Source: Vibrio cholerae ATCC 14035 (GTDB taxonomy: Bacteria; Pseudomonadota; Gammaproteobacteria; Enterobacterales; Vibrionaceae). Taken from it: a stretch of DNA of 20,192 nucleotides. Both the position numbers and the translations under genes were made by a program. The notes under the pieces were generated by a model. That model did not search any database, was not told the DNA's origin, and was given only the letters and a program-made list of their open reading frames with translations. Below, in pieces: positions 70 through 19,050 of this stretch. The DNA lies in assembly GCF_000621645.1 (NCBI RefSeq), contig NZ_JHXR01000032.1, forward strand, positions 1 through 20,192, given 5' to 3'. The number at the start of each line of letters is the position of its first letter. The stretch's first letter is position 1.

Positions 70-95
70 TAACGCCCGCCTAAGGGGCTGGCAAC
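70..95 (-). repeat. VCR (integron attC), R'-proximal 26 bp, separated from the rest of the site by the island
   Basis: TAACGCCCGCCTAAGGGGCTGGCAAC is identical to the first 26 nt of the intact VCR at 19596..19717 and to the truncated copy at 20170..20192. Homology stops right after AC at 94..95. Confidence 0.9.
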
Positions 96-132
96 AGAAA
101 AACGCTACTATTACCACAGTTGTTACATAACC
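70..132 (+). other. attL (VCR half-site + AC core + island P' half-site)
   Basis: VCR sequence runs up to AC (94..95). The P' arm AGAAAAACGCTA-CTATTACCAC-AGTTG-TTACA (96..127) mirrors the arm at 19053..19084. Confidence 0.75.
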
Positions 133-172
133 AGTAACCCAAGTTAAACGGAATTTAACGGAGAGTAGCTAA

Positions 173-325
173 ATGCGTAAACAAAGCCTTAAACCTGTTG
201 TAGTCACTGCACAGCCTTGTGAGATCATTAACTTTGTAAACCACAGCAAACACTTGTCAATCAAGCAATGTGTGAGGTTACGCCTCTTAGCTGCTCGCCT
301 AGAATTCCATCAAACCTCAATTTAA
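173..325 (+). CDS. Small hypothetical protein (50 aa), not in the supplied ORF track
   Basis: ATG at 173 preceded by GGAGAG (160..165). Reads MRKQSLKPVVVTAQPCEIINFVNHSKHLSIKQCVRLRLLAARLEFHQTSI and stops with TAA at 323..325, 18 nt before the next gene. No recognisable family. Confidence 0.35.
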   Translation: MRKQSLKPVVVTAQPCEIINFVNHSKHLSIKQCVRLRLLAARLEFHQTSI

Positions 326-343
326 TTTAGGAGATACTAATAT

Positions 344-838
344 ATGTTTAAAGTGTTAATTCATGAACGTAGTAAAGACGTTAAAATTCTGCCTGATGGT
401 GGGTTTGATTTAACCGTATTGTTGTTTGGTGTGTTTGTCCCCTTGTGGCGTGGACAATACAAACGTGCATTAAGTTACCTAGCAATTGTTATTTGCACCT
501 TGTTTGTTGCTTGGTTATTTATTCCTTTCTTCTCCAACAAACACTATATCAAGGATTTGTTAGAGAAAGACGGGTATTTATTGGCAGAAGATTATACAGG
601 TATTAAACCTGTAATCCCTGACACCTCCCCACTAATGATCATGCTGAAAGATTTTGTCAGTTGGTTTATGTTTATCCATGTTTTACTTGGTGTTCTTGGT
701 TTATTTATATTAGGGGATTTGTTGTTAGCTGTTACCATAATCGCCCTGTTTGGTTTAGGGTTGGCTTTACGTTACCACCGTGCTTTAGCTAAACACCAAG
801 CTATCACAAAGTATAATGAGGTGAGTAATGCTGCTTGA
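344..838 (+). CDS. Integral membrane protein; N-terminal region resembles the DUF2628-type small membrane domain
   Basis: AGGAG RBS 8 nt upstream. Several hydrophobic spans (LTVLLFGVFVPLW, LSYLAIVICTLFVAWLFIPFF, FVSWFMFIHVLLGVLGLFILGDLLLAVTIIALFGLGLAL). The GF-x-LTVLLFGVFVPLWRGQYKRAL pattern is reminiscent of DUF2628; this comes from memory, not alignment. Confidence 0.7.
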   Translation: MFKVLIHERSKDVKILPDGGFDLTVLLFGVFVPLWRGQYKRALSYLAIVICTLFVAWLFIPFFSNKHYIKDLLEKDGYLLAEDYTGIKPVIPDTSPLMIMLKDFVSWFMFIHVLLGVLGLFILGDLLLAVTIIALFGLGLALRYHRALAKHQAITKYNEVSNAA

Positions 839-1055
839 TCAAGATTATATCGACAGTAATTTCCGCAAATACCACGTAAACACAATAAAAAAGTGGTGTT
901 CTGGGGAGTGTAGAGGTTTGACGGAAGAGTTAGCCCTTAATTCTCTTGATGTGCTTTTGCACGTGGAAGATTCCACACTAACAGAAATTGCCGAATCTAC
1001 AGGGTTAACACTAGAGACAGTTGCAAAGTTAAACGCAAAACTAGTGTTGTCATAG
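828..1055 (+). CDS. Small helix-turn-helix protein (75 aa)
   Basis: Overlaps the upstream gene by 11 nt; GAGG lies 7 nt upstream of the ATG. STLTEIAESTGLTLETVAKLN looks like an HTH. Confidence 0.6.
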   Translation: MLLDQDYIDSNFRKYHVNTIKKWCSGECRGLTEELALNSLDVLLHVEDSTLTEIAESTGLTLETVAKLNAKLVLS

Positions 1056-1110
1056 GGTTGGTTTTACAACTAGTTTTTAACAAGTTAGGTTAGTTTGTTT
1101 GTGTTATTAT

Positions 1111-1139
1111 GGGGAGGCTTAACGCCTCTCCTTTTTATT
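1111..1139 (+). terminator. Intrinsic terminator closing the left-end three-gene module, immediately upstream of int
   Basis: GGGGAGGC-ttaac-GCCTCTCC stem (one mismatch) followed by TTTTTATT. Confidence 0.7.
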
Positions 1140-1155
1140 AAGCGTGTGTGAATTT

Positions 1156-2814
1156 ATGCCAAAACTTTACATATTTAGACGAGTATCTAGTAAACGCCAA
1201 ACCAACAAAACAGGTTTAAAGATACAAGTTCGCCCTGAAACTGTAGAGCGTTTATTGTCTGAACATGGTTTATCAGAGGTTGTTGATCTTGGGGCTGAGG
1301 TTGCCAGTGCAAGCAAAGGTAAGCATATCGAAGAAGGGAGTATTTTAAAACGCTTTTTAATGAAATGTGAGCGCGGAGAAATTGAACAAGGGTCAATACT
1401 CGCTGTTTATTCCCTCGACCGTCTAAGCCGCCTTGAGAAGCTTGGACTGGCTAAGAGTCTAATCTACTTGCCGATTACAAACAACGGCGTGAGTATATTC
1501 GGTGAAATAGACAATTTCCTATACAAACCCCACGATGTTTTGAGTGAAATATTATCAAGCTTAGTGTTTGAGCGTGCAGCCGAAGAGAGCCGAGCAAAGA
1601 AAAACCGTAACATTGACAGTTTAGCGGCTAACCTCGCACAGTATCAGCGAGATGGACAATACACAACAAAACTGGGTAAATCTCCTAGTTGGATAAATCA
1701 CAAAACAGGTAAGCTTAACGAAGAGGCTGTATTGTGGCGTGAGGTGATTAATTGTTATACAAGTGGACAATATAAAAACTTATCCGCATTGCATACAGCT
1801 ATGCAATTGGCAATACCCTACAACACATTGAGCAAGGTTATTAATAACGCTCACAAAACGCTTATAGGGACAAAGGTTATTAAGGGTGTGGAGCTTGCAG
1901 AATTTTATGAGCCATTGTTAACACAAGAGGAATACAACCGTTTGTTGATTTATGTCCGACAAATGGGAACTGGTAAAGGTAAAGCTATTGCCACCACTAA
2001 AACCGAGAATATCTGGCTATTGAAGGGATTAGGAGAATGTCCTCAATGCGGTAGTTTGTGCGGGAGCTTCAAGAATGGTGCAAGTGTTAAAGATAAGGTG
2101 AGGTATAACTACCGATGCAATGCAGCCATAAACAAGCATTGTGATAGTCCCACGTATAACCTAAACCCTATAGAGGCTATCGTAACGCTGTTATCAGCCG
2201 ACTATTTGCATGAAGTTAGCCAAAGGGAAACCAACACCGAACTAAACGCTAAAATTGAAGCTATGCAGGTAGAGGTTGAACGGTTAGAAACACAATTAGA
2301 CCAAGCAACACAAGCCTTAAATACCTTTTTCAGCCCTGAGTTGGCACAAGCCATACCAAAATACCGAGAACAACTAGAAACCGCCCAAAACGAACTACAG
2401 ACACTATTAGCATTAGCTTCTAACCACACACCAATTAATGAAAGCTTATTATCAGCAGAGATTATATTAGACAAAGCTAACCCTGAAAGGGTGAAGCTTG
2501 TTAAATTGTTGCAAGGTTGTATTAATCGCGTGATTGTTACACGTAAGAGTGTTAAAAAGGGTGACATACGATTTAACCCAAAGATTTACACAGGCTGCGA
2601 TTACTCTCTGTTGTGCGTAAGGGTGGAATTTATAGATGGGAATATTAGGGTGTTTGATAGTGTGCTTAGGGACAACCTACGTTTAAATTTAAGTGTTAGC
2701 GATGGCACAAGATCAATTGGTTTAGAAAACTTTCATAGATTTAGCCGAAGGTTGAGAGAATACGATTTGATAAAATATTGTGTGATAAATAACCGCAAGC
2801 TGAAAATCACGTAA
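1156..2814 (+). CDS. int: Large serine recombinase (integrase)
   Basis: N-terminal catalytic motif YIFRRVSSKRQ and YSLDRLSRL. Cys-rich zinc-ribbon CPQCGS...YRCNAAINKHC. Long coiled coil (ELNAKIEAMQVEVERLETQLDQATQAL...ETAQNELQTLLA). About 550 aa and adjacent to attL. I prefer ATG 1156 (MPKLYIF) over the track's GTG 1144. Confidence 0.92.
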   Translation: MPKLYIFRRVSSKRQTNKTGLKIQVRPETVERLLSEHGLSEVVDLGAEVASASKGKHIEEGSILKRFLMKCERGEIEQGSILAVYSLDRLSRLEKLGLAKSLIYLPITNNGVSIFGEIDNFLYKPHDVLSEILSSLVFERAAEESRAKKNRNIDSLAANLAQYQRDGQYTTKLGKSPSWINHKTGKLNEEAVLWREVINCYTSGQYKNLSALHTAMQLAIPYNTLSKVINNAHKTLIGTKVIKGVELAEFYEPLLTQEEYNRLLIYVRQMGTGKGKAIATTKTENIWLLKGLGECPQCGSLCGSFKNGASVKDKVRYNYRCNAAINKHCDSPTYNLNPIEAIVTLLSADYLHEVSQRETNTELNAKIEAMQVEVERLETQLDQATQALNTFFSPELAQAIPKYREQLETAQNELQTLLALASNHTPINESLLSAEIILDKANPERVKLVKLLQGCINRVIVTRKSVKKGDIRFNPKIYTGCDYSLLCVRVEFIDGNIRVFDSVLRDNLRLNLSVSDGTRSIGLENFHRFSRRLREYDLIKYCVINNRKLKIT

Positions 2815-2848
2815 GAAAAAGACCGCCCTATTAAGGCGGTTTCTTTTA
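2815..2848. terminator. Bidirectional intrinsic terminator between convergent int and the leftward operon
   Basis: AAAAAG-ACCGCC-ctattaa-GGCGGT-TTCTTTT. The A-run and T-run flank a 6-bp GC stem, so it should work on both strands. Confidence 0.8.
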
Positions 2849-3265
2849 TGTGTTTAGAAAACCGTAGACAGTAGTTGTCCATGTTCTACCTGTCTTAGGG
2901 TTAAGTAGTGTTATTGGTGTCTTAGACGCACCGAACCACTCCCCAACCTCACCACCAAAACCTAGTAATACATAACCCTTTTGGACACAATTCCGCTGAA
3001 CCAAGATATGATACTGGTTTGGGGAATATTTGTAGCGACCACTGCAGGGACACGGCACTCTCTCATTGCAAACAAGATTACTTTTGGTTGATGTAAAACC
3101 ATCCGGAAATAACACTTCATCCACACTACAAATAGAACACTCAACCGTGAATACTGCATTACGTCCACTAGTTTGATCGGTGATACCCGTTACTGTTAGT
3201 GTGCCGCCCTTGGGTGTATGAAACTGCTCCCCGATAAACTCACGTTGTAATCTCGTAATTTTCAT
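2846..3265 (-). CDS. Homing-endonuclease-type DNA-binding protein without a catalytic domain (candidate repressor)
   Basis: AAGGAA RBS. The pattern FIGEQFHTPKGGTLTVTG, then CSIC...(19)...CNERVPCPC, then YVLLGFGG...TLLNPKTGRTW...VYGFL resembles the N-terminal Zn-ribbon/DNA-binding modules that precede T5orf172/GIY-YIG catalytic domains in phage homing endonucleases. At 139 aa it has no room for a nuclease domain. Confidence 0.5.
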   Translation of the reverse strand: MKITRLQREFIGEQFHTPKGGTLTVTGITDQTSGRNAVFTVECSICSVDEVLFPDGFTSTKSNLVCNERVPCPCSGRYKYSPNQYHILVQRNCVQKGYVLLGFGGEVGEWFGASKTPITLLNPKTGRTWTTTVYGFLNT

Positions 3266-3300
3266 ATTTCCTTTCTCTATTCTTCTTTTGTTGTTATTTG

Positions 3301-3702
3301 TTATTTTGAATCAATCAATTCGATCATTAATTTGAAAGTTTCTGAATTGATAGCTTGCCAAGTAATGCCACTGCCATACGTGTTTGCTTTAGCTGTAGTG
3401 GTGGTATAAGCCTTGATAAAATTATGTAGTATGTCGTTGAAAATGCACTTATTTTCTTCTGTTAACCACCGCTTGAAATAATCATGATGCAGTTCGACAA
3501 GTTGTTTTATTTCTACAATTGTTTGTGGTGGGATAAGCGAGATTAAACTCATTCGCACTTGATTGCTTTGCCCCACTAAATCCTCTACACGAAAACCCAA
3601 TGCATCCACAAAGGCGCAAGTAATATCATGGTATTGTAGAGGGAGAAGGAGGCGGTTATATTCGTCATATTCAAAATTAAAAGTTTGCGCTGTCATGTTC
3701 AT
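3301..3702 (-). CDS. Hypothetical protein (133 aa)
   Basis: AAGGAA RBS; tight operon spacing with its neighbours; no recognisable motif. Confidence 0.7.
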   Translation of the reverse strand: MNMTAQTFNFEYDEYNRLLLPLQYHDITCAFVDALGFRVEDLVGQSNQVRMSLISLIPPQTIVEIKQLVELHHDYFKRWLTEENKCIFNDILHNFIKAYTTTTAKANTYGSGITWQAINSETFKLMIELIDSK

Positions 3703-3716
3703 AGTTCCTTATATTA

Positions 3717-4094
3717 TTAAAACTTGGTTGATTTAAATTGACGTGGATCGAATGGTTTGGGAGGTGTATTAGGTGTAGTTGTTGGTTGTTGTCCACCTTC
3801 TACAGCCTCCACTGCTTGCACTTTCTTCAGCAATTCCTCTAGATCTGCAACAACCTTGCTCAAGTGTTTCTGTTCATTCAATACAATCTTGATTGCATCG
3901 GATTGACCTTTAGTTAATTCGATCTCGCCTTTGCAAGCTTTGATTAGTTGTAACATGATCCCGTCATAGGCTTTATTGATGCGACCTAGTGCCTTATTGC
4001 TACCTTTGGCAGCTTCTAGCAGGGTGTCGAGGTGATTGTCCAAGGAGGCTTTGATATTGTCGTTTGATTTATACACTGGATATACATTACTCAT
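3717..4094 (-). CDS. Coiled-coil protein with Thr/Pro-rich C-terminal tail
   Basis: The start at 4094 (MSNVYPVYK) has an AAGGAA RBS and avoids overlap with the upstream gene; the track's start at 4124 is the alternative. C-terminus is QQPTTTPNTPPKPFDPRQFKSTKF. Confidence 0.7.
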   Translation of the reverse strand: MSNVYPVYKSNDNIKASLDNHLDTLLEAAKGSNKALGRINKAYDGIMLQLIKACKGEIELTKGQSDAIKIVLNEQKHLSKVVADLEELLKKVQAVEAVEGGQQPTTTPNTPPKPFDPRQFKSTKF

Positions 4095-4110
4095 TTTTAT
4101 ATGTTCCTTA

Positions 4111-4386
4111 TTATATGATTTCATGGAATTGGTAGAGGCGGTCGGTTTCTTCCGATAAGGTTTTTACAATACTGTTATATGTTGAACGAATTTTAGTAAT
4201 TCGATTAACACTCAATGTTGTCCCTGTTTCCGCTTTAACGATATTTGCAATTGTGGCTCGTGGGATATTCAAACCACTTAGGCACACTACCAATTTAGTT
4301 ACATTATTGGTGCGAGTTTCTGACATTAGTGACATACCCAAACCAATAATATCGTTTTGAATCTTACTTAAAATTTTACTGCTCAC
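4111..4386 (-). CDS. Small protein, possible HTH regulator; first gene of the leftward operon
   Basis: GTG start with AAGGAA upstream. GLNIPRATIANIVKAETGTTLSVNRITKIR is HTH-like. Sits downstream of the minus-strand promoter at 4658..4687 and a ~265-nt leader. Confidence 0.6.
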   Translation of the reverse strand: MSSKILSKIQNDIIGLGMSLMSETRTNNVTKLVVCLSGLNIPRATIANIVKAETGTTLSVNRITKIRSTYNSIVKTLSEETDRLYQFHEII

Positions 4387-4415
4387 TTTATATAGTTTTC
4401 CTTATGTTGTTTGTT

Positions 4416-4448
4416 GTTAACTTTACAAGTTAGGGGGTTAACTTTACA
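4416..4448 (-). repeat. Two exact 12-bp direct repeats GTTAACTTTACA, 21 bp apart, in the leader of the leftward operon
   Basis: Copies at 4416..4427 and 4437..4448; each contains the GTTAAC palindrome. They lie 30-60 nt upstream of the start at 4386. Confidence 0.8.
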
Positions 4449-4650
4449 CCCATAAATTAACCGTCCTATAAGGGCTAGGTGAGGTTTTAGAGATTAGACG
4501 GCGTATTATATTGAGGATTATTTAGAGCTTGTTGTGGACGCTTGGAGAAGCGTTATATACCCCCTATACCCTACCCCCTAACTAAAACTGAGGAATTGAC
4601 GAGTTTAAAGGGGAGTTGTGGATGTATAACAGGAAGATTTCCTACCCTTA

Positions 4651-4690
4651 TATTATCATTATAGCATTTAATGAGAATCATTATCAATAG
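4651..4690 (-). promoter_or_regulatory. Sigma-70 extended -10 promoter for the leftward operon, with an overlapping Fur-box-like operator
   Basis: Minus strand reads TTGATA (4687..4682), 18 nt, TGcTATAAT (4666..4658). The module is near-identical to 11966..11998 on the plus strand. 4667..4685 (TTTAATGAGAATCATTATC) matches the 19-bp Fur consensus GATAATGATAATCATTATC at 16 of 19 positions. Confidence 0.7.
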
Positions 4691-5405
4691 GTATTAGTAA
4701 AAAGGTGATAGTTTTAAGCCAATATTATCAACAAATATCTATCACCTTGTAATTATAACAAGTGATATTGTTTTAACATGGATATTAGGACTACCGCTAA
4801 AATTTCAGAAAATTATAAAAAATTTTATAGCAGGTAATAAATTGAGGGCTAAACCATTATGAAACCTAGAGATAATATCCATATGAGGGAGAGGGTGTGA
4901 GGTGGGGTAAGGTAAAATTATACAAATTGAGCAAGAGCTGCTAAGCCCACCCACTCCACCCCTTTACACTACTTATACATTTTTCTTGCATATCCATGCA
5001 CAGGTGTATTTCTCCCCTATCGGGACAATAATTCCACTCATAATCAAAGATTAAATTATGGCGCACTGAGGTGTAATCTCTTACAACCATTGATACATAA
5101 GGGTTTGAGTGCGATTACGTGCGCCTATTATGCGTTATTGGTAGATATTAGAACCATTATGTTAAATGAGTGATTTCTAATATATAGGTTAGAGGTGTCT
5201 AGTTTGCATTTTCACAAGTTTACTGTCTGCAAAAGGTGGTAAAACCTCATAGATAACTGAGTAAATACTTGCACCAATTTAGTGCAATAAAAAGTAATGT
5301 AAGAATCTGCACTTTGAATATGATTCGCTGTAAATCTCCCACTTTTCACAATTCCCATAATTTAACCTAAATATTCGTGACTGAGTGTTGTATGCATACA
5401 TATTC

Positions 5406-5451
5406 TTTGCATTTTGCAAATCATAATGATAACTATTTGCATTTTGCAAAT
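5406..5451. repeat. Two exact 16-bp direct repeats TTTGCATTTTGCAAAT, each an internal dyad (TTTGCA/TGCAAA), 30 bp apart
   Basis: Copies at 5406..5421 and 5436..5451. Related TTTGCATT cores occur at about 5203 and about 6985. Confidence 0.85.
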
Positions 5452-5812
5452 ATGAGTTTACACTTATGTGCGGCGATGGTGTTTGTGATTTGTTTAGCAC
5501 CTCTTCTGTATATTATACATAACCTTACCCCCTAACAATCCTCTTTGCATATGTGTGGCATACTCCATATGTGTATATAACAGCTTATATGCTTTTCTAT
5601 CCTCATTTAAACACGCTCAGAACGTCATTTAACGCATCTTATCACCACCTTAATATGATTGCCTTATGTATCATTAAAACCTCTTAGAATCGCTTACAGG
5701 AGCTTACAACGTGTTGTAGGAGCGTTTATAACAAGTTATAAAGTGCTTTTAGATAGATTCCGAGAATATACGGTAACTTACCACCTACCCAATCTCTTAT
5801 ATCTCCACTTAT

Positions 5813-5860
5813 ACGTTAGTATTACTGACGTTAGTATTACCCCCAACGCAATAATGCGTT
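5813..5860. repeat. Tandem 13-bp repeat ACGTTAGTATTAC (x2, 15-bp period) followed by the palindrome AACGCAataaTGCGTT
   Basis: Repeats at 5813..5825 and 5828..5840; palindrome at 5845..5860. Confidence 0.85.
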
Positions 5861-6003
5861 TACCCACACATATTTGTGTATCCCACAATAACGCAACAGA
5901 ACGCATTTTAAACGTGTTTACACACAACCCAATACATTCGTATGCCTTTGCATACAAAACTCAATACAGAGCGTTACAGAGCGTTTTACACAAGAAATGT
6001 GTA

Positions 6004-6094
6004 TCCACACAAGGAATACTCCCACACACAAGAATTGTGTAATCCACACAAATAAAGAATTCCACACAAAGAATATTGTTTGCACAAAAGGGAT
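6004..6094 (+). repeat. Iteron-like array, five copies of TCCACACAA-GAAT with ~18-20 bp period
   Basis: Copies start at 6004 (TCCACACAAGGAATA), 6021 (CCCACACACAAGAATT), 6043 (TCCACACAAATAAAGAATT), 6061 (TCCACACAAAGAATA) and 6079 (degenerate, TTGCACAAAAGGGATA). Confidence 0.75.
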
Positions 6095-6106
6095 AACCTT
6101 CACAGG

Positions 6107-6641
6107 TTAGACGAACACAACATACAAGGAGCATAGCGACACAGTAGGTTGTTTAGTGAGTCTTACCTATACACACTCAATAAACGTTAGTTTATGCAAC
6201 ACACAATGTTATAGCGGAGCTATTAAGTATGCACATTAGTTACGTAGTAACAAAGGATGCCCACAAGAGGTGCTTTAGCACTTAGACGAACAAAGTGAGT
6301 CTATTATTTGTAAGCGAAGCGCACACACAACCGAAGGGCGTAGGCGTTAGCCGTGAGGTGAGTGTTAACGAACTTATTACTTATAGTTCTCTTGTCTTTA
6401 AATCTTTACATGTAAAAACAAAAACAAAGATCTTTAAATCTTTTCTTGTGTGGTTCTTATGCACTTAGGAGCGTAAGCGAGTTAGTGCACACATAAGCGC
6501 AAGCGTTGTCACGTAGTGAGCACAGGCGAACGTAGTGTTATAGTTATGTGAGCTTATGCGAACTTAGTGTTATTTGGTTTTAAGCCTCATGGCGTTTGAA
6601 TGTTTTAGTTTGGACGAAGTCCTTATGAACTAAGCGAAGCG
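6107..6641. repeat. Degenerate array of (A/G)CGAA(C/G) and TTAG(T) motifs flanking an AT-rich core
   Basis: Exact 11-mers TTAGACGAACA (6107..6117, 6282..6292) and TAAGCGAAGCG (6311..6321, 6631..6641). 16-mers GCGAACgTAGTGTTAT and GCGAACtTAGTGTTAT at 6526..6541 and 6558..6573. Many looser copies. Confidence 0.6.
6395..6443. repeat. AT-rich core bracketed by exact 13-bp direct repeats TCTTTAAATCTTT (candidate DNA-unwinding element)
   Basis: Repeats at 6395..6407 and 6431..6443. The spacer is ACATGTAAAAACAAAAACAAAGA and contains a GATC. Confidence 0.6.
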
Positions 6642-6657
6642 TGTTCTTTATAGTTAG

Positions 6658-6760
6658 TGGGGTGATTTTCATACCTATAAAGTATGTTTATATGGATGAT
6701 TTTCAGCCCTATAAGATTCTCTAAGCTTCTATTTATATGGGTGATTTTCATACCTATAAA
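6658..6760 (+). repeat. Three ~25-bp iterons TATGG(G/A)TGATTTTCA(T/G)(A/C)CCTATAA
   Basis: Copies at 6658..6681, 6691..6715 and 6736..6760. Copies 1 and 3 share the 21-nt core GGTGATTTTCATACCTATAAA exactly; copy 2 has 4 substitutions. Spacing is 33 and 45 bp. Confidence 0.8.
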
Positions 6761-7000
6761 TTCATACAGTAGTACAGTTTACGGACTGCTTCCTACTTTC
6801 ATCCTCCCGATGCACACGCGGCAATGTGCGCCGAGACGGAATATTTGCAGCCCCAGAAAATCAATCGCTTACCAGATTTGTTTAGCGTAGAGGTGCTAAA
6901 AGGCATCACATAATCATATGTTACGTTACATACCTTAACCATCTGACCGCAATTTATTGGTTTGGTGTTTATACGGTGTGCATATTTGCATTGGGGGTTG

Positions 7001-7064
7001 TTGAACGTTTTTGTTCAAATCATCTCACTGTCCATTGATTGTTGTATATTTTTCATGTTATAAT
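7001..7064 (+). promoter_or_regulatory. Promoter of the winged-helix regulator gene, with an upstream palindromic operator candidate
   Basis: TTGATT (7035..7040), 18 nt, TGtTATAAT (7056..7064). The palindrome TTGAAC-gttttt-GTTCAA at 7001..7018 ends 16 bp upstream of the -35. Confidence 0.6.
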
Positions 7065-7100
7065 GGTCATAATAACAACAATCATTGAGGAGCCAACCTT

Positions 7101-7814
7101 ATGCAACACAATACCCCATACCTACCACACCAATCTCTACAACTACAATCGCGCCTAATCAAACTTTATCAGAATGTTGGTTTGTTTGTCCCTAAACTCA
7201 CTTTTTGTTTTAGTGTAGACAATGCAGAAACAGATACTCACTACTATAATGTGTGGTTTTCATCCAACGTTGATGGTGAGTTGATCATCGGTGAATGTAA
7301 TACATACGAAAAGGCGACTTTAATCGCCCAACAATGGCTTGATAACACAACAGACGAGGATTTACTTCACCTTGTGCAAAGTGTCTTATCTAGAGGCTAT
7401 ACAGACGGATTTAGTGAATGTATCGAAGGTGTTAGACAGGCAGACAAACTCACCAGTAACGAATTGCTTGTTTTAGAATGCCTACGACCTCAACTAGATT
7501 TTGAAGAAGGTTCAGAAAGTGGTCAGTATCCTTGGAGCAATACAGACATTAGTGACAAGACAGGCATTCACCGTTCAAACCTTCACCGTGTGCTTAAAAG
7601 TTTGGTTAACAAAGGTTTGATTGTAGAAGAAACCGTCAAACGTGATGTATGGGCAAGCTTGAAGAAGTGCGGCCATGTTCAGAAAGATGTATTGGTTTAT
7701 TACCCTGTTGCTACCCGTGAAGAAGATCTTGAGGTGATGGAAAACTGGCACGAATGGCGAGCTATCCGACAAAAGGAAGCAATGCAGAAGTGGCGAGCGA
7801 TGTTGTCTAGTTAA
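7101..7814 (+). CDS. Winged-helix (MarR-like) DNA-binding regulator with an orphan N-terminal domain
   Basis: GAGGAG RBS. The C-terminal segment NTDISDKTGIHRSNLHRVLKSLVNKGLIVEETVKRD is a typical wHTH recognition helix plus wing. Confidence 0.75.
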   Translation: MQHNTPYLPHQSLQLQSRLIKLYQNVGLFVPKLTFCFSVDNAETDTHYYNVWFSSNVDGELIIGECNTYEKATLIAQQWLDNTTDEDLLHLVQSVLSRGYTDGFSECIEGVRQADKLTSNELLVLECLRPQLDFEEGSESGQYPWSNTDISDKTGIHRSNLHRVLKSLVNKGLIVEETVKRDVWASLKKCGHVQKDVLVYYPVATREEDLEVMENWHEWRAIRQKEAMQKWRAMLSS

Positions 7815-7843
7815 TAACTGCTAGTTAATAACTGCTAGTTAAC
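7807..7843 (+). repeat. 14-bp tandem repeat CTAGTTAATAACTG, 2.6 copies, starting inside the last codons of the regulator gene
   Basis: Copies at 7807..7820 and 7821..7834, plus partial 7835..7843 (CTAGTTAAC). The first copy contains the TAA stop codon (7812..7814). Confidence 0.85.
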
Positions 7844-7919
7844 GAACACCGCCCAATTCTGGAACAGAACACCCCTAACACCCCCAACACAAAAAGATCC
7901 TGAATGCAATAAAAAAGTG

Positions 7920-7949
7920 TTGAAGTTGTCGGGCGGAACATGCTAATAT
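7920..7949 (+). promoter_or_regulatory. Extended -10 promoter (upstream member of a tandem pair)
   Basis: TTGAAG (7920..7925), 18 nt, TGcTAATAT (7941..7949). Followed by TTAACTTAGTGAGG, resembling the initial transcribed region of the other promoters. Confidence 0.5.
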
Positions 7950-8013
7950 TAACTTAGTGAGGCGTGAAGCACAAAAAGATGAATAATATTTTCAAAAAAG
8001 TTGTGTTTTACTA

Positions 8014-8043
8014 TTTACTATGCTAGTCGAAAACTGCTATAAT
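8014..8043 (+). promoter_or_regulatory. Extended -10 promoter for the replication operon
   Basis: TTTACT/TTACTA (8014..8020), 17-18 nt, TGcTATAAT (8035..8043). GCTATAATTAATA is identical to the -10 region at 11991..12003. Confidence 0.55.
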
Positions 8044-8199
8044 TAATACATGAGGTAATAAAAGACACCTTTTCACGGTAGTGACATACCCCTGAACAAA
8101 CTTTCATAACACAATCTAACCTACTCCATACGTGCATTGCTTGCGATGAATCACACGTTGTGGGGTTTTCGTGTATCCGCAGGATAAGGAAACAAAACT

Positions 8200-8436
8200 A
8201 TGAAATATGAAATTCCACCATCATTAAATTTGAAAGAACTACCACTAACAACACAGTATCAACTGAACCGCATGTTAAACGGTGAGATTCGCCCGTCAGC
8301 AATTCGACGTAATAAAGCTAACTACAAGCTTAAAGGTGATAAAGATAAGGTGTTCGAGAATGGTTTAGCCGTCCGACTATTTAACCTTATTAAAGAATAC
8401 AACAATGTCGAAAGTGTTGAGAGTGAGGAGGTTTAA
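8200..8436 (+). CDS. Hypothetical protein (78 aa)
   Basis: AAGGAA RBS; first gene after the tandem promoters. Confidence 0.65.
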   Translation: MKYEIPPSLNLKELPLTTQYQLNRMLNGEIRPSAIRRNKANYKLKGDKDKVFENGLAVRLFNLIKEYNNVESVESEEV

Positions 8437-8442
8437 CAGATT

Positions 8443-8625
8443 ATGAAAATTCAATTAAAACACCCATACGATAAACTAGCGGGCGAGTTAGCAGATCTTA
8501 CAGGACTAAGCCCCACTCAATTAACTATCCAACTGATGCAAGAGCTACAAATCAAAATTTCTGAAACAAATGCCCAAGAAGAGGCAAAGGAGAATAATAA
8601 CAATGTCAAAGTTTTACCAAATTAA
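8443..8625 (+). CDS. Hypothetical small protein (60 aa)
   Basis: GAGGAGG RBS. LADLTGLSPTQLTIQLMQEL could be a small DNA-binding fold. The 3' end overlaps repA by 23 nt. Confidence 0.55.
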   Translation: MKIQLKHPYDKLAGELADLTGLSPTQLTIQLMQELQIKISETNAQEEAKENNNNVKVLPN

Positions 8626-9643
8626 TACAACACTTCTAGAAAGTAATGAAGCTGTAAACAAACAAACAGGTGAGGTTGTCCCACTTTCACCAGAAACAAA
8701 GCTTGTATATGCCTATATGCTAAATCAATATCGAATGCATAGAAAATACGGCAACCGTAGATATACTGAATCATGGGATAAAATCTTTACAGTGTGTTGT
8801 GATGTGGCTACGCAGAAGCAAAAGAAATTAGCCAAAGAACTTACAACACTAGGCTTGATAGAAGTAATCGGTAACAAAAACGCCTACAAGGTTGTGCATA
8901 GTGTTGAATCTATTATGGAAGCTTGGGAACTTACCAATTCAAAACTTAACACCTTCAAAGATCCTACCCAAACAACCAAGCGGAAAGAATCTAAGAAACA
9001 ACGCCTCAATAAATGGGAAGAAGATAAGCGCAGCAAAGGCGAATGGAAGGATTTTAAAGAACCTCACCTAGAAGAGATGCAAGATTGTAACGGCGCAGAA
9101 AGCTACTTTACAGAGCAACCACCTGTAGAAGCTTACGAGCAAGATTACCGCCCTATCGCTGGTGATACCGTTAACTTTGGTGTATTAGCTGATATTGATA
9201 CTTCTGGCGCACCAACGTCTGATCAGTGGGATTGTCCACCAGAAGATGAACCAGAGTCACCTACCCCTGCAAAGGATGAACCTCAAGAAGTTGTTGAAGT
9301 GGTTACGCCGCAAGTGGTGGAGCATGTTACCCCTGTAGTGTGTGGTGATAAAAGTAAACTGTTGAAGTGCTTCCGACCAAACACAGATATTAGTGAAATT
9401 GATATAAGCGGAAAAGGGATCGGATTCTTTGCCAAACCTTTACACTTGAAAGAGTGCGATAAAGATACAGCAAGGCAATATCTCAAGGCTATAAAAGCGT
9501 ACTATTGGGATCAATACAATCCTGATAATGCAACGATAGCTAACATGGTTAGTTGGTTGACTTGTTCAGTATGCAGCAATTTAACTAACGAGCTAGGCTA
9601 CTGCCTCGATCCTAATTGCTCTAGTAATAACCTCCCCTTCTAA
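8603..9643 (+). CDS. repA: RepA_N-family replication initiator
   Basis: The N-terminus FYQINTTLL...PLSPETKLVYAYMLNQYRMHRKYG...WDKIF...KKLAKELTTLGLIEVIGNK follows the RepA_N pattern (F/Y-x-hydrophobic, LS-x-x-AKLLY, embedded wHTH ending in GLI). An acidic Pro-rich linker (PPEDEPESPTPAKDEPQEVVEVV) and a Cys-rich C-terminus (CSVCSN...CLDPNC) follow. Start at ATG 8603 (AAGGAG 10 nt upstream) is preferred over the track's 8570. Confidence 0.75.
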   Translation: MSKFYQINTTLLESNEAVNKQTGEVVPLSPETKLVYAYMLNQYRMHRKYGNRRYTESWDKIFTVCCDVATQKQKKLAKELTTLGLIEVIGNKNAYKVVHSVESIMEAWELTNSKLNTFKDPTQTTKRKESKKQRLNKWEEDKRSKGEWKDFKEPHLEEMQDCNGAESYFTEQPPVEAYEQDYRPIAGDTVNFGVLADIDTSGAPTSDQWDCPPEDEPESPTPAKDEPQEVVEVVTPQVVEHVTPVVCGDKSKLLKCFRPNTDISEIDISGKGIGFFAKPLHLKECDKDTARQYLKAIKAYYWDQYNPDNATIANMVSWLTCSVCSNLTNELGYCLDPNCSSNNLPF

Positions 9644-9727
9644 GCTTACCCAATAAATCAACAATTTGAATGCACTACCTTAGTAAGGTTGGTGTGATAA
9701 CTATTTTACTAATATGAGGAATAAATA

Positions 9728-10579
9728 ATGTCATTTACAAAATCTGAAATCCTAGAAGCCTTGCAAAGTAACCTAGAGATTACAAATATCACCTGCAACA
9801 CTGCAACATTAAAATTTAAGTATGAAAATACACCTTTTGAAATACTACCCTCTAAAATGTGTATTAAATCTAAGAATAAAGGTTTTGCAGGTAGCTACCG
9901 AACATTTAAGAGTTTATCGGAGTTGGTTCAACTAGTCAAATCTTGTGAACGTTTTATCCTTGGTGACGGCCTTGTTGATACAATCCCCGACCTACTTTAC
10001 AAAGCTAAGGTTAGAGATGCTCAGTTTATCGAAGATTGTTATTACAAAGAGAGTGCCTACTACAAACTAAAACGAGAACTTTCAAACAATTCTGACTACG
10101 CTAAGAAAAGTTTTAAGGAGATAAAAGATTCTTGTGACGATTTTAAAAATTGGTGGGATAGAATTGACCTCCCTGACAACTGGGAAGATTTTAAAACATG
10201 GTGTGACACTAATAATTGCTCTACACAAATCGCACTAGAGTTAATCTTGAGAAGATTACGTTTTCTTCCTTCAGATTCAGGCGTTAAAGCGGTGAGATTT
10301 TGCAATATCTTCTATTGGTATAACGGCACATATCGTAATGCAAAAGGTAAAACCCACTACCAATCTAAAAACTTGTTACATGTGATCAGATTGCAGGATA
10401 GTTTCAATCCCTTAGAAGGAGCTAACATTGACGATTATTCACTCTTACCTACAGACAAGGCAACGTTGACGAAAGAAATTGCAATGTTTTTAAGTAATAC
10501 TGAGTTTTATAAGTTAGATATGCAAGCTTACACTAAAGGTTATAAAGATAGTTATGTCCTTGACACCAAAGCTCTATAA
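9728..10579 (+). CDS. Hypothetical protein (283 aa), Trp/Cys-rich central segment
   Basis: GAGGA RBS; operon context downstream of repA; no family recognised. Confidence 0.7.
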   Translation: MSFTKSEILEALQSNLEITNITCNTATLKFKYENTPFEILPSKMCIKSKNKGFAGSYRTFKSLSELVQLVKSCERFILGDGLVDTIPDLLYKAKVRDAQFIEDCYYKESAYYKLKRELSNNSDYAKKSFKEIKDSCDDFKNWWDRIDLPDNWEDFKTWCDTNNCSTQIALELILRRLRFLPSDSGVKAVRFCNIFYWYNGTYRNAKGKTHYQSKNLLHVIRLQDSFNPLEGANIDDYSLLPTDKATLTKEIAMFLSNTEFYKLDMQAYTKGYKDSYVLDTKAL

Positions 10580-10732
10580 AGCTTGAACCTACAAAGGTTA
10601 CGCCGCTTAAAACCCCACACAACACGCTCTAACACAAACAAACACACTACCCCATTGATGCAGCGTTAAACGCTTCTACGGCTTTCTACGCTCGTTATTC
10701 AGGGGTATATAACAATATAAGGAACTAAATAC

Positions 10733-10885
10733 ATGCAACAATTCACAATAGACAGTATCACCCTTGCCGCCATGATTCGCATTTGCACAATCGAAACATT
10801 AACGGAAGCGCAGCGCCTTGAACTTATCAAAGCTCACTTACTCAATATTAAAACACCAACCACTGATGAATGGGACGAATTTTAA
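10733..10885 (+). CDS. Micro-ORF, 50 aa (not in the ORF track)
   Basis: AAGGAA RBS; reads MQQFTIDSITLAAMIRICTIETLTEAQRLELIKAHLLNIKTPTTDEWDEF. Confidence 0.5.
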   Translation: MQQFTIDSITLAAMIRICTIETLTEAQRLELIKAHLLNIKTPTTDEWDEF

Positions 10886-10886
10886 A

Positions 10887-10967
10887 ATGAAAAAGAGATT
10901 ACGAATCCGCAAAATTAGACGTAGCCGACTACGTTTTAACTATAAACTATTACAAGGAAATAAATAA
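10887..10967 (+). CDS. Micro-ORF, 26-aa Arg/Lys-rich peptide (speculative)
   Basis: Reads MKKRLRIRKIRRSRLRFNYKLLQGNK. The ATG lies 1 nt after the previous stop and its own stop overlaps the next ATG (TAATG), which suggests coupling. No clear RBS. Confidence 0.25.
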   Translation: MKKRLRIRKIRRSRLRFNYKLLQGNK

Positions 10968-11113
10968 TGTACCAGATTGAAGACGGACAAGCGTATATTA
11001 TCGTCAGTAGGGCAGAATTCGACATTTACACCGCTTTAAGTGATGCAGGTAAAAAAGAATATTTTGATGAGTTAACACACAACCGCCCTATCTATAGCTT
11101 GATCGAAGATTAA
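10967..11113 (+). CDS. Micro-ORF, 48 aa
   Basis: AAGGAA RBS; reads MYQIEDGQAYIIVSRAEFDIYTALSDAGKKEYFDELTHNRPIYSLIED. Confidence 0.5.
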   Translation: MYQIEDGQAYIIVSRAEFDIYTALSDAGKKEYFDELTHNRPIYSLIED

Positions 11114-11145
11114 ACAACATAACAACAATAAGGAAAGGAAAAATT

Positions 11146-11262
11146 ATGAACATCCAAGACGTGACAGCAGCAATTGATCTTCTAACCATTGCATATGTGT
11201 TTATCAAATCGCATCCATATTACACCGAGTTTATGCAATATCTTCTACTAAACCAACAATAA
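11146..11262 (+). CDS. Micro-ORF, 38 aa
   Basis: AAGGAAAGGA RBS; reads MNIQDVTAAIDLLTIAYVFIKSHPYYTEFMQYLLLNQQ. Confidence 0.45.
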   Translation: MNIQDVTAAIDLLTIAYVFIKSHPYYTEFMQYLLLNQQ

Positions 11263-11278
11263 TAATAAGGAGAATAAT

Positions 11279-11617
11279 ATGAACCCAGATTATGTTAAGC
11301 TGAAACTAAAACAAGGCCAGATTGACTCCATTAATAAAAAGATCGCCAAACTAGCCAAGAAAAACACACCAAATGCTGTTGTTAAAAAGCTTACTACCCA
11401 ATGCTTACAAGGTTTGCTGACATATGATCACGAAGTTAAAGTATTGATGGAGTATGTTGTAGCAAATGCAGATTGTTTTGTGGATGAACAGGTAAAGTGC
11501 GCTAAAAAGTATCTAGCAGCTAAAACCGCACCTTATCCTATTCTGTTCTTGATGGACTTTTATAATGCAGGATCAAGTGACGGCTGGAATTATAAAAATG
11601 TGCTATTAGGTATTTAA
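11279..11617 (+). CDS. Hypothetical protein (112 aa)
   Basis: AAGGAG RBS; operon context. Confidence 0.7.
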   Translation: MNPDYVKLKLKQGQIDSINKKIAKLAKKNTPNAVVKKLTTQCLQGLLTYDHEVKVLMEYVVANADCFVDEQVKCAKKYLAAKTAPYPILFLMDFYNAGSSDGWNYKNVLLGI

Positions 11618-11638
11618 CAAACTAAGAGGATTATTAAA

Positions 11639-11938
11639 ATGTACCAAGTGGAATTTAAGACAAAAGAAGGTGCACGTTACACCGTGGTATTCACACAATA
11701 TGTTTGTGCCATGCCAAATCCCGACACCTTGCATGTTACTAGCGACCGTTTCGATTTTAAAATTACCCGTATTAAAAATGACCGCAGTATTACTCAGGAT
11801 GTAAATTTCAATTTAAAAATCGACGGTAAGGTTATCCCTGCAACCCAATACGTTGTAAGTGGGCAAAACAGTAAACGCACAAGCAAGCAGACGGATGTAA
11901 TACTATCGAACTATTACAACTGGGTGGATTTAATTTAA
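11639..11938 (+). CDS. Hypothetical protein (99 aa)
   Basis: AAGAGGA RBS; last gene of the replication-side operon. Confidence 0.7.
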   Translation: MYQVEFKTKEGARYTVVFTQYVCAMPNPDTLHVTSDRFDFKITRIKNDRSITQDVNFNLKIDGKVIPATQYVVSGQNSKRTSKQTDVILSNYYNWVDLI

Positions 11939-11965
11939 ACATTTTCACTTATGACTTGAAAATAG

Positions 11966-11998
11966 TTGTTGATAATGATTCTCGTTTAATGCTATAAT
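11966..11998 (+). promoter_or_regulatory. Extended -10 promoter, the plus-strand twin of the 4658..4690 module
   Basis: TTGATA (11969..11974), 18 nt, TGcTATAAT (11990..11998). 11969..11998 differs from the reverse complement of 4658..4687 at 2 positions. 11971..11989 matches the Fur consensus at 14 of 19 positions. Confidence 0.7.
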
Positions 11999-12004
11999 TA
12001 ATAT

Positions 12005-12229
12005 GTAGGGGAGGATAACCTTACCTACTTTTGATTATATGTTTCTCCTTACATTCATATAATACACCTCTTCAAATTGCGCTGTCACGCAATCTTAGCT
12101 AACTGCTATTGCATACCCAATAGTATTCTCCCCTGTTCATAACCATTGTTAGCGTGGTGAGGATTCCTTATGTTTGTTGTTATGTAAATTAATAAAGGTG
12201 GTTCCCTTCTTCAACCACTTTTATTTTTA
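12005..12229 (+). ncRNA. Candidate ~225-nt structured non-coding transcript, either an sRNA or a terminated leader of the late operon
   Basis: Bounded by the promoter at 11969..11998 and the terminator at 12195..12229. No ORF longer than 7 codons. Hairpins: GTAGG-GG-AGG-ATAA-CCT-TA-CCTAC (12005..12028), ATTGCG-ctgtca-CGCAAT (12076..12093), CTATTG-catacc-CAATAG (12106..12123). Confidence 0.55.
12195..12229 (+). terminator. Intrinsic terminator
   Basis: AAGGTGGTT-cccttcttc-AACCACTT(T): a 9-bp stem with one G-U pair, followed by a T-rich tail (TTATTTTT). Confidence 0.75.
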
Positions 12230-12391
12230 CCATAGCATTCAAGTCATAAGTGTAAATTGTAAATTGTGAAAGGTCGATTCGACAGTAAATCGGCCACTTT
12301 AAAAACCCTATTACACTAGCAAATGACAGACTGTTAGCTGTAAATATTTTATAACAACAATAAATAATAATAATTACAAGGAAATACGAAC

Positions 12392-12868
12392 ATGCCTTAC
12401 TACAGTAAAAATGCAGAACGTGCCGCTTTAATTGGTTGCACACTACAACAACTTAAAAAACTTAACGTGCAGTTTTTAAATATTAAATATAGATGCGGTC
12501 GATTAAAAGGTTATGAAACCTGCCAGTTTAAATTAGGAACCTTTGACGATTTTATTGAATGGATTGCCTCGCAAGGTGGATACAAAACAAGTCCTCACGG
12601 TCATGCATACCACGTCAGCCGCATCCGAGATCAAGGTGATTACGAATATTCAAACATCAGATTTTGTAGTCACGCAGAGAATTTAAGAGAGACTGCTCAT
12701 TTTTGGTTAGTTACCGACATTAAAACCTCACGTCAGGAACTATTTCAAGGAAATTTAACAACCAAGCTAAAAGAATTATTTGATGTGAGTGGCTATGGTG
12801 CTTATAAAGCCGCTGAAAGTGGTCGTTTATACAAAGGCCGATTTAAAATTGACAAGTTAAGTATTTAA
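12392..12868 (+). CDS. HNH-type homing-endonuclease-like nuclease
   Basis: AAGGAA RBS. HGHAYHVSRIRDQGDYEYSNIRFCSHAENLRE fits the H-N-N/H beta-beta-alpha-metal motif (H...N...H-x-EN). The C-terminal FDVSGYGAYKAAESGRLYKGRFKI resembles the small DNA-binding modules at the C-termini of phage homing endonucleases. Confidence 0.65.
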   Translation: MPYYSKNAERAALIGCTLQQLKKLNVQFLNIKYRCGRLKGYETCQFKLGTFDDFIEWIASQGGYKTSPHGHAYHVSRIRDQGDYEYSNIRFCSHAENLRETAHFWLVTDIKTSRQELFQGNLTTKLKELFDVSGYGAYKAAESGRLYKGRFKIDKLSI

Positions 12869-12880
12869 AAAGAGGAACAC

Positions 12881-13860: not shown

Positions 13861-13953
13861 AAGAATTTTGGGAGTGTGGTGTGTGCTCTCAGATGTTTAA
13901 GCAATACGCACCAAACATAACAACACAATACAAAATATAAGGAAAAATGAACT

Positions 13954-14838: not shown

Positions 14839-14891
14839 CTCACATACTTTAGGGGAGATTGCTCCCCTACAATAATAAGATAAAAGGAAAT

Positions 14892-15101: not shown

Positions 15102-15112
15102 GAGAGGGAAAT

Positions 15113-16143: not shown

Positions 16144-16160
16144 TAATAAGAGTGTAACCT

Positions 16161-18985: not shown

Positions 18986-18990
18986 TATTA

Positions 18991-19020: not shown

Positions 19021-19050
19021 TAAGTTATGTGACAAATATCACAATTTTCT

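What the first reader, a model, noticed from the sequence alone, without database searches (positions are those of the whole stretch)
70..132. Exact crossover inferred: shared AC core, a restored 123-bp VCR, and a dyad-symmetric attP
Seen in sequence: AC occurs at both junctions (94..95 and 19085..19086). Joining 70..95 to 19087..19183 gives a 123-bp VCR that is collinear with the intact 122-bp neighbour at 19596..19717. Joining 19051..19086 to 96..132 gives a candidate attP whose arms mirror each other around AC. The two arms are identical at 19 of the first 32 positions. This includes a perfect 10-mer CTATTACCAC at offsets 13-22 (108..117, and inverted at 19063..19072) and a perfect TTACA at offsets 28-32 (123..127, and inverted at 19053..19057). 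A 2-bp core with about 30-bp imperfect inverted half-sites is what large serine recombinases use. The spaced outer and inner motifs fit the zinc-ribbon-domain and recombinase-domain contacts known from structural work on these enzymes.
Basis: partly seen in the sequence, partly recalled or inferred. Interest (0 to 1): 0.7.

Follow-up and report, generated by a model that had tools for sequence, protein, structure and literature searches.

The report
Known PLE5 satellite attachment junctions

Summary
Observation confirmed. AC sits at 94-95 and 19085-86. Joining the flanks rebuilds a 123-bp VCR. The rebuilt circle junction is a dyad centred exactly on AC (19/32 matches, with a perfect 10-mer in each arm), far beyond chance.

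The 19-kb insert (96..19084) is PLE5. The sampled ends of the window are 100% identical to V. cholerae O395 and related contigs, and the Int protein is identical to O395's. The Seed laboratory has shown that PLE1-type Int is a large serine recombinase. It recombines attP with a VCR in vivo and in vitro, and excision needs the phage ICP1 protein PexA.

New support found here:
- The same break point occurs in at least 5 different VCR contexts on the left and 4 distinct VCRs on the right.
- Two elements with only 41-43% identical integrases, one in V. vulnificus, show the same break and the same motif register.

One correction. Measured against the A118 integrase structure, the 10-mer lies where the zinc-ribbon motif sits, not the recombinase-domain region. 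The outer TTACA lies outside that footprint, is displaced 2 bp in functional PLE1, and is absent in distant relatives.

Verdict: correct, but already known, so low interest. The central dinucleotide and motif map are at most a small refinement.

The parts
70..93 (+). B half-site. This is the conserved outer arm of the split VCR (TAACGCCCGCCTAAGGGGCTGGCA), the left part of attL.
   Evidence: Identical or differing by one base (G/A at 91) in every attL and every intact VCR examined.
94..95 (+). Central (crossover) dinucleotide AC in attL.
   Evidence: The only bases shared by attP and attB at the junction. The same break ..CAAC|AG.. occurs in at least 5 different VCR contexts for PLE5, and also in PLE1-type, V. 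metoecus, V. vulnificus and L032 elements.
96..118 (+). P' half-site of attP (AGAAAAACGCTACTATTACCACA). Its invariant part is the 10-mer CTATTACCAC at 108-117.
   Evidence: ATTACC at offsets 15-20 is conserved in elements whose Int is only 41-43% identical.
122..138 (+). Probably not part of the recombinase site.
   Evidence: Read from the sequence. The register differs by 2 bp in PLE1, and TTACA is absent in L032/L033.
1156..2814 (+). int: PLE1-type large serine recombinase, 552 aa, catalytic Ser11.
   Evidence: 100% identical to V. cholerae O395 ABQ18627.1/ACP11324.1 and 93% to PLE1 Int. Pfam Resolvase is above cut-off and the Zn-ribbon hit is just below it. R9/S11/Q15 are invariant. The profile hits A118, TP901-1 and phiC31 integrases. 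The AF2 model matches full-length serine integrase-att complexes at E about 1e-14.
96..19084 (.). Body of PLE5 (phage-inducible chromosomal island-like element 5), about 19.0 kb.
   Evidence: CapR domain protein at 2846-3265(-) and DUF6945 (RepA-like) protein at 8570-9643; tail-assembly-chaperone-like protein at 15113-15589. The window's first 5814 bp are 100% identical to four V. cholerae contigs (L001, L004, L008, L010), and its last 3666 bp are 100% identical to O395 chromosome 2. O395 carries PLE5 in a VCR between VCA0481 and VCA0480 (PMC5481146 supplement).
19062..19084 (+). P half-site of attP (reverse complement AGGTAAGTAAAGCTATTACCACG), with the inverted 10-mer at 19063-19072.
   Evidence: Identical in PLE5, PLE1-type and V. 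metoecus elements.
19085..19086 (+). Central dinucleotide AC in attR.
   Evidence: The break ..CCTAC|GCA.. is seen next to 4 distinct VCR right halves at 5 sites: window type, L014, L020, L026/L027 and L037.
19087..19183 (+). B' side: the remainder of the split VCR. It holds the variable inner half-site GCATTTCCACCAAACTC..., then the conserved distal arm.
   Evidence: Collinear with intact VCRs.
19596..19717 (+). Intact neighbouring VCR, i.e. an unoccupied attB-type site.
20170..20192 (+). Start of the next VCR, cut by the window end.
   Evidence..TAACGCCCGCCTAAGGGGCTGGC.

Best explanation
Positions 70-132 are attL of PLE5, a roughly 19-kb phage satellite of Vibrio cholerae integrated in a superintegron repeat (VCR).

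The element's large serine recombinase (Int, 1156..2814) binds as a dimer to a roughly 50-bp attP. On the circular form, attP is made of 19062..19086 joined to 96..118. Its two arms each carry ATTACCAC about 15-22 bp from the centre. Int also binds double-stranded VCR DNA as attB.

In the synapse all four strands are cut with 2-nt staggers at the shared, non-palindromic AC. One pair of half-sites rotates and the ends are religated. This gives attL (VCR arm + AC + P') and attR (P + AC + rest of the VCR). Because AC is asymmetric, the satellite enters in one orientation only.

Reversal (excision) needs a directionality factor that the satellite does not encode: PexA of the lytic phage ICP1.

Shown here: the junction anatomy, the symmetry and its centre, the reuse of the same break in many VCRs, and the LSR nature of Int.
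Taken from the literature: catalysis by PLE1 Int and the role of PexA.
Inferred: the exact cut at AC, the roughly 50-bp extent of attP, and the assignment of the 10-mer to the zinc-ribbon domain.
For: - Coordinates and counts are verified.
- The best dyad centre in the circle junction is exactly AC. Whole-window and shuffle controls support this.
- attP and attB are identical only at AC.
- Independent insertions break at the same base: at least 5 left contexts, 4 distinct right-hand VCRs at 5 sites, and PLE1-type and V. metoecus elements.
- Elements with 41-43% identical Int in another V. cholerae contig and in V. vulnificus break after the same GGCAAC and keep ATTACC at offsets 15-20.
- Every insertion seen has the same orientation relative to the VCR.
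- Int is an LSR: Pfam, invariant R9/S11/Q15, profile hits to A118/TP901-1/phiC31 integrases, and Foldseek hits to full-length serine integrase-att complexes at E 1e-14 to 1e-12 and to 4kis at 2e-8.
- Identity with O395/PLE5.
- Published work: Int alone recombines attP (300 bp) with attC (70 bp of a VCR) in vivo and in vitro; PexA plus Int recombine attL with attR (PMC6002521). PLE1, 3, 4, 5, 6 and 10 integrate in VCRs (PMC8844924; PMC5481146). Circularisation products were sequenced.
- Pfam finds no transposase or tyrosine recombinase among the 30 ORFs scanned.
Against: - Neither a sequenced circle junction nor the empty VCA0480/0481 site could be retrieved with these tools. The AC assignment therefore rests on comparing occupied and unoccupied VCRs.
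- A zinc-ribbon motif shifted 5 bp inward in attB, as the A118 model predicts, is not evident in the VCR: 3-4 of 9 matches, counted by eye against the half-site sequences.
- The Pfam Recombinase domain (PF07508) is not detected directly in this Int, and the Zn-ribbon hit is just under its cut-off.
- The experiments cited were done on PLE1 Int (93% identical), not on this PLE5 protein.
Confidence: 0.93

Rival explanations
1. The element is a cut-and-paste or replicative transposon. On this reading the two ACs are a 2-bp target-site duplication, and the symmetric arms are terminal inverted repeats bound by a transposase.
For: Formally, imperfect inverted ends flanked by a 2-bp direct repeat look like this.
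Against: - Pfam finds no transposase among the 30 ORFs scanned.
- Every independent insertion uses the same base of the same repeat in the same orientation.
- An LSR gene lies next to the end.
- The published circular form and Int-only attP x attC recombination argue against it.
Confidence: 0.02
2. The integron integrase (IntIA, a tyrosine recombinase) inserted the element at the VCR as if it were a giant cassette.
For: The target is an integron attC site.
Against: - The break lies 26 bp inside the VCR, not at the G|TT of the terminal core site where integron integrases exchange strands (that rule is established knowledge). The VCR is split, not duplicated.
- The element carries no attC of its own.
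- Int alone suffices experimentally.
Confidence: 0.01
3. It is an LSR site, but the functional attP is longer (about 66 bp or more). On this reading the outer TTACA pair is a real protein contact.
For: - TTACA is present in both arms of all PLE1-type elements seen.
- An in-register run of 5 or more has only about 1.3% chance expectation.
- The model shows a low-confidence segment (residues 271-283) between the recombinase-like and zinc-ribbon regions. A longer linker could reach further, as suggested for TP901-1.
Against: - The register differs by 2 bp between the arms in PLE1, L026 and L028, and PLE1 is functional.
- TTACA is absent in the L032/L033 arms.
- It lies at positions 29-33, beyond the 24-25-bp half-site of the solved complex.
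- In the right arm it is part of a separate local palindrome.
Confidence: 0.1

Closest known systems
PLE5 of Vibrio cholerae O395, and PLE1-type Int/attP/VCR integration (O'Hara 2017, PMC5481146; McKitterick & Seed 2018, PMC6002521; Angermeyer 2022, PMC8844924)
   Same: The Int protein is identical to O395's, and the sampled DNA matches exactly: the first 5814 bp to four V. cholerae contigs and the last 3666 bp to O395. The insertion site is the same (a VCR between VCA0481 and VCA0480). The gene content matches too: int, CapR, RepA-like and tail-related genes.
   Different: Nothing differs biologically. In the papers and supplements I could search, I found no explicit statement of the AC central dinucleotide or a half-site motif map for the PLE1-type Int.
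[quoted passage not shown]
   Same: A 2-bp central dinucleotide and an imperfect inverted attP. The best-conserved motif lies at positions 16-23, where the A118 zinc-ribbon motif (16-24) sits. The profile and fold match over the recombinase-domain end, zinc ribbon and coiled coil.
   Different: Only about 16-17% sequence identity. No clear 5-bp-shifted copy of the motif is seen in attB. Instead the VCR consensus carries ATTACCAC at offsets 3-10. attB here is a repeat present in more than 100 copies, not a unique site.
PLE2-type Int (630 aa), which integrates into vca0581
   Same: Also an LSR on a PLE. The rest of the satellite is homologous (L029).
   Different: A different integrase lineage: 44% identity over 190 aa only. 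It uses a different, single-copy attB in an M48 peptidase gene, and it does not use PexA.

Membership tests
Large serine recombinase (serine integrase) att system | N-terminal resolvase-type catalytic domain with a nucleophilic serine | tested here: met
   PF00239 scores 24.6 bits against a cut-off of 23.3. R9, S11 and Q15 are invariant in the family alignment. The profile hits the TP901-1 catalytic domain at 1.8e-8.
Large serine recombinase (serine integrase) att system | C-terminal recombinase domain, zinc-ribbon domain and embedded coiled coil | tested here: met
   PF13408 scores 23.4 bits, just under its 25.3 cut-off, and PF07508 is not detected directly. However, the family profile hits the A118 integrase CTD at 3e-12 over positions 264-434. 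The AF2 model (pLDDT 80.6) has a long helical hairpin at 336-422. It matches full-length integrase-att complexes 9dxd/9dxh/9y66 at 1e-14 to 1e-12 and 4kis at 2e-8. Remote homologues P0062-P0066 carry PF07508.
Large serine recombinase (serine integrase) att system | attP and attB share a 2-bp, non-palindromic central dinucleotide at the exchange point | tested here: met
   The two sites are identical only at AC. The same break is seen in many independent insertions, all in one orientation.
Large serine recombinase (serine integrase) att system | attP is an imperfect inverted repeat of about 40-50 bp centred on the dinucleotide | tested here: met
   The best dyad centre is AC. The match is 19/32, with a perfect 10-mer at offsets 13-22 in both arms.
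Large serine recombinase (serine integrase) att system | attB carries the zinc-ribbon motif shifted about 5 bp towards the centre relative to attP (A118 model) | tested here: inconclusive
   Offsets 10-18 of the two VCR half-sites match ATTACCACA at only 3-4 of 9 positions, counted by eye on the sequences. An ATTACCAC copy does occur in the VCR consensus, but at offsets 3-10.
Large serine recombinase (serine integrase) att system | Integration needs only the integrase; excision needs a recombination directionality factor | not testable with these tools
   Published for PLE1 Int and ICP1 PexA (PMC6002521). PLE5 Int is 93% identical.
PLE (phage-inducible chromosomal island-like element of V. cholerae) | An island of about 18-19 kb with int at one end, a leftward operon including capR, a non-coding region with repeats, repA, and a rightward morphogenesis-related operon | tested here: met
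   CapR (PF21817) and DUF6945/RepA-like protein. Repeats at 5965-6074. Tail-assembly-chaperone-like protein. Gene-by-gene similarity to PLE1-type and PLE2-type loci. Sampled sequence identical to O395, which harbours PLE5.
PLE (phage-inducible chromosomal island-like element of V. cholerae) | Excises, replicates and blocks phage on ICP1 infection | not testable with these tools
   Literature only.
Integron cassette insertion by IntI | Exchange at the G|TT of the attC core site, with the inserted unit ending in its own attC | tested here: not met
   The break is 26 bp inside the VCR, and the element has no attC of its own.
DDE transposon with 2-bp target duplication | An element-encoded transposase and relaxed target choice | tested here: not met
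   No transposase family is found among the 30 ORFs scanned. Every insertion is at the identical base of the VCR.

The most novel reading that the evidence does not exclude
The PLE1-type integrase lineage may be a family of serine integrases specialised on double-stranded integron attC repeats as multi-copy landing pads in several Vibrio species.

The supporting hints:
- Relatives at 41-43% identity, in another V. cholerae contig and in V. vulnificus, sit at the same base of a VCR-like repeat.
- Target choice may be narrowed by the variable inner half-site. All 5 occupied sites read ACCAAACTC, against about 17% of VCR-like repeats.
- The attB architecture appears to depart from the A118 '5-bp shift' rule, since ATTACCAC lies at offsets 3-10 of the VCR consensus.
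Probability: 0.3. Interest if true: 0.35.

Novelty: already known. Interest (0 to 1): 0.15.

Why it matters
PLEs are the main defence of epidemic V. cholerae against the phage ICP1, and their Int/attP module is itself a target in that arms race. A base-level map of the central dinucleotide, a roughly 50-bp attP and the conserved ATTACC motif would help in designing minimal substrates and in predicting which of the more than 100 VCRs can receive a PLE. It does not change what is understood about the system: the element, the enzyme class, the target repeat and the phage-encoded directionality factor are all published.

Tried and rejected
Searches that found nothing:
- The PLE circle junction (GCTTTACTTACCTACAGMAAAACGCTAC) in viral contigs and metagenome contigs, and an arm 18-mer in viral contigs: no hits.
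- The exact rebuilt empty site in metagenome contigs: no hit. It is also absent from the fetched loci.
- The PLE in the phage record collection: no match. The plasmid collection returned only VCR-like attC copies, not V. cholerae chromosome 2.
- Single-sequence phmmer of Int against the PDB: nothing. The family profile was needed.
- Rfam on the whole window: nothing.

Look-ups that were blocked:
Their attP symmetry is therefore untested.

Leads that were not informative for the VCR site:
- Homologues of the 582-aa tail-region protein led to PLE-like arrays outside integrons (L035, L036).
The background frequency for the possible target preference therefore comes mainly from V. mimicus, V. metoecus and other Vibrio species.

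Readings rejected: transposon with target duplication, integron-integrase insertion, and chance symmetry (see rival explanations).

Full report
**What is in the sequence**

- AC lies at 94-95 and at 19085-86.
- 70..95 joined to 19087..19183 gives a 123-bp sequence. It aligns end to end with the intact repeat at 19596-19717, with 112 identical positions and one 1-bp gap. It also aligns with seven other intact V. cholerae repeats (VCRs) from related contigs, and the AACGCA around the proposed core is invariant in all of them.
- 19051..19086 joined to 96..132 gives two arms that match as an inverted repeat at 19 of the first 32 positions.
- The arms share a perfect CTATTACCAC at offsets 13-22 and TTACA at offsets 28-32.

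**Is it more than chance?**

Yes. I scanned every possible dyad centre in a 600-bp reconstruction of the circular junction, and the best centre is exactly the AC. In the whole window, only 2 of 20112 centres reach 19/32 and none has a 10-base run. Shuffling one arm gives P=3e-4 for 19 or more matches and 5e-6 for a 10-base run.

Two independent lines therefore point to the same two bases: where VCR homology stops, and where the dyad is centred. attP and attB are identical only at AC, and the neighbouring bases differ on both sides. The exchange point is not ambiguous.

**What the element is**

The 19-kb insert is PLE5, a phage-inducible chromosomal island-like element of Vibrio cholerae.
- The protein from 1156..2814 is identical to the V. 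cholerae O395 proteins ABQ18627.1/ACP11324.1.
- The last 3666 bp of the window are 100% identical to O395 chromosome 2. The first 5814 bp are 100% identical to four other V. cholerae contigs.
- O'Hara et al. list O395 as carrying PLE5 'in VCR between VCA0481 and VCA0480' (PMC5481146 supplement).
- The gene downstream of int has the CapR domain, and the 357-aa protein has the DUF6945/RepA-type domain.
- A tail-assembly-chaperone-like protein is present.
- Most ORFs have close counterparts in PLE1-type and PLE2-type loci.

**What is already published**

- PLE1 Int is a large serine recombinase. Alone it recombines a 300-bp attP with a 70-bp VCR attC, in vivo and in vitro.
- Excision (attL x attR) needs PexA, a protein of the lytic phage ICP1, as directionality factor (PMC6002521).
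- PLE1, 3, 4, 5, 6 and 10 share this integrase type and integrate into VCRs. Fourteen natural VCR sites are known (PMC8844924).
- Circularisation products were confirmed by sequencing (PMC5481146).
- PLE5 Int is 93% identical to PLE1 Int.

**Independent support obtained here**

*Same break in many insertions.* Contigs carrying the identical Int show PLE5 in at least five different left-hand cassette contexts. Each breaks at ...CAAC|AGAAAAACGC. On the right, 4 distinct VCR sequences at 5 sites follow ...CCTAC|. PLE1-type elements and a V. metoecus element break at the same base.

*Same break in distant relatives.* Integrases only 43% and 41% identical were found in another V. cholerae contig (L032) and in V. 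vulnificus (L033/L034). They sit behind the same ...GGCAAC break of a VCR-like repeat, and their element-side arms carry ATTACC at offsets 15-20, the same register as PLE.

*One orientation.* All insertions have the same orientation, as expected from an asymmetric core.

**Is Int a large serine recombinase?**

Pfam alone is marginal. Resolvase is just above its cut-off, the Zn-ribbon hit is just below, and the Recombinase domain is not called. Stronger evidence comes from three sources.
- A profile of the family hits the A118 integrase C-terminal domains (3e-12), the TP901-1 catalytic domain (2e-8) and phiC31 integrase (1e-7).
- An AlphaFold model (mean pLDDT 80.6) matches full-length serine integrase-att complexes at E 1e-14 to 1e-12, and 4KIS at 2e-8.
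- R9, S11 and Q15 are invariant. S11 is the likely nucleophile, by analogy with resolvases.

No transposase or tyrosine recombinase is found among the 30 ORFs scanned.

In the A118/LI integrase-attP structure, the recombinase domain covers positions 1-12, the linker 13-15 and the zinc-ribbon motif 16-24. In attB the zinc-ribbon motif is 5 bp closer to the centre (PMC3783163).

Counting the core base as position 1, the PLE 10-mer is positions 14-23. That is the linker plus zinc-ribbon region, not the recombinase-domain region. Offsets 1-12 of the two arms agree at only 4 positions.

TTACA is positions 29-33, outside the known footprint. A natural experiment argues against it being a spaced contact.
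- In PLE1, L026 and L028, the right arm has a 2-bp deletion between the 10-mer and TTACA. This moves TTACA to offsets 26-30, while the left arm keeps 28-32. PLE1 is the element whose recombination was demonstrated.
- TTACA is absent from the L032/L033 arms.
- In the right arm it is part of a separate local palindrome, GTTAC..GTAAC, at 122-138.

I therefore place the likely attP at about 19062..19086 + 96..118 (about 50 bp). A longer site cannot be excluded.

**Rivals**

- *Transposon with a 2-bp target duplication.* This would look similar on paper. It is contradicted by the lack of a transposase, by strict reuse of one base in one orientation, and by the published Int-only reaction.
- *Integron-integrase insertion.* This would occur at the terminal core site of the attC, not 26 bp inside it.

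**What remains open**

- I could not retrieve a sequenced circle junction or the empty site.
- The A118-type 5-bp-shifted motif is not evident in the VCR.
- Instead, the VCR consensus inner half-site (GCATTACCACTAAACTC) carries the same ATTACCAC 8-mer at offsets 3-10. I cannot explain this.
- All five occupied inner half-sites read ACCAAACTC. Only 30 of 175 VCR-like repeats in other Vibrio genomes, and 2 of 16 distinct intact VCRs beside PLEs, have C at that position. This hints at a target preference. The sample is small and the insertion events may not all be independent.

**Verdict**

However, it describes the attachment sites of a well-characterised satellite. Novelty: already known. The AC dinucleotide and the motif map are at most a small refinement, because I found no explicit statement of them in the texts I could search.

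Noticed in passing
window 19087-19103; VCR consensus in alignment A2; L038-L150: The consensus VCR inner half-site GCATTACCACTAAACTC carries ATTACCAC at offsets 3-10 from the AC. This is the same 8-mer as the invariant attP arm motif at offsets 15-22. It is a 12-bp inward shift, not the 5 bp of the A118 attB model. Unexplained.
   Followed up: partly
window 19087-19103; L014, L020, L026/L027, L037: All five occupied VCR inner half-sites read ..ACCAAACTC (C before AAAC). Only 30 of 175 VCR-like repeats in other Vibrio genomes, and 2 of 16 distinct intact VCRs beside PLEs, have C there. This may be a target preference of Int. The sample is small.
   Followed up: partly
L032:656-3384; L033:6306-9018; L034:5-2717: Integrases 43% and 41% identical to PLE Int, in another V. 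cholerae contig and in Vibrio vulnificus, sit behind the same ...GGCAAC break of a VCR-like repeat, with ATTACC at offsets 15-20. Apart from Int, only one or two small ORFs are recognisably PLE-like. The right ends could not be fetched.
   Followed up: partly
L035:10001-12794; L036:10001-12850: Homologues (42-54% identity) of the PLE 582-aa and terminal 152-aa proteins lie in PLE-like gene arrays that are not next to integron repeats. They are flanked by BatD/QSregVF_b or by LysR-type genes. These may be PLE-like satellites with other integration sites.
   Followed up: no
window 5965-6074 and 7807-7842: Tandem repeats occur in and next to the long non-coding region: 10 bp x2, 19/38 bp x2-3, and a perfect 14-bp unit x2.6 just after the HTH protein gene (7101-7814). 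They are probably the counterparts of the non-coding-region repeats and ori iterons described for PLE1 (PMC7145576).
   Followed up: partly
window 122-138: GTTACATAACCAGTAAC is a local inverted repeat (GTTAC..GTAAC) just inside the left end, upstream of the first small ORF. It could be an operator or accessory site rather than part of attP.
   Followed up: no
window 19087-19717 versus plasmid records: VCR-like attC copies (90-95% identical) occur on plasmids of Aeromonas, E. coli, Klebsiella, Shewanella and other Vibrio species, in one case beside AAC(6')-Ib9. Potential attB-type sites for this integrase therefore exist outside V. cholerae.
   Followed up: no
window 1144-1158: An in-frame GTG at 1144 gives a 556-aa reading, which older annotations use (MJ-1236, B33). 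Current records start at the ATG at 1156 (552 aa).
   Followed up: yes
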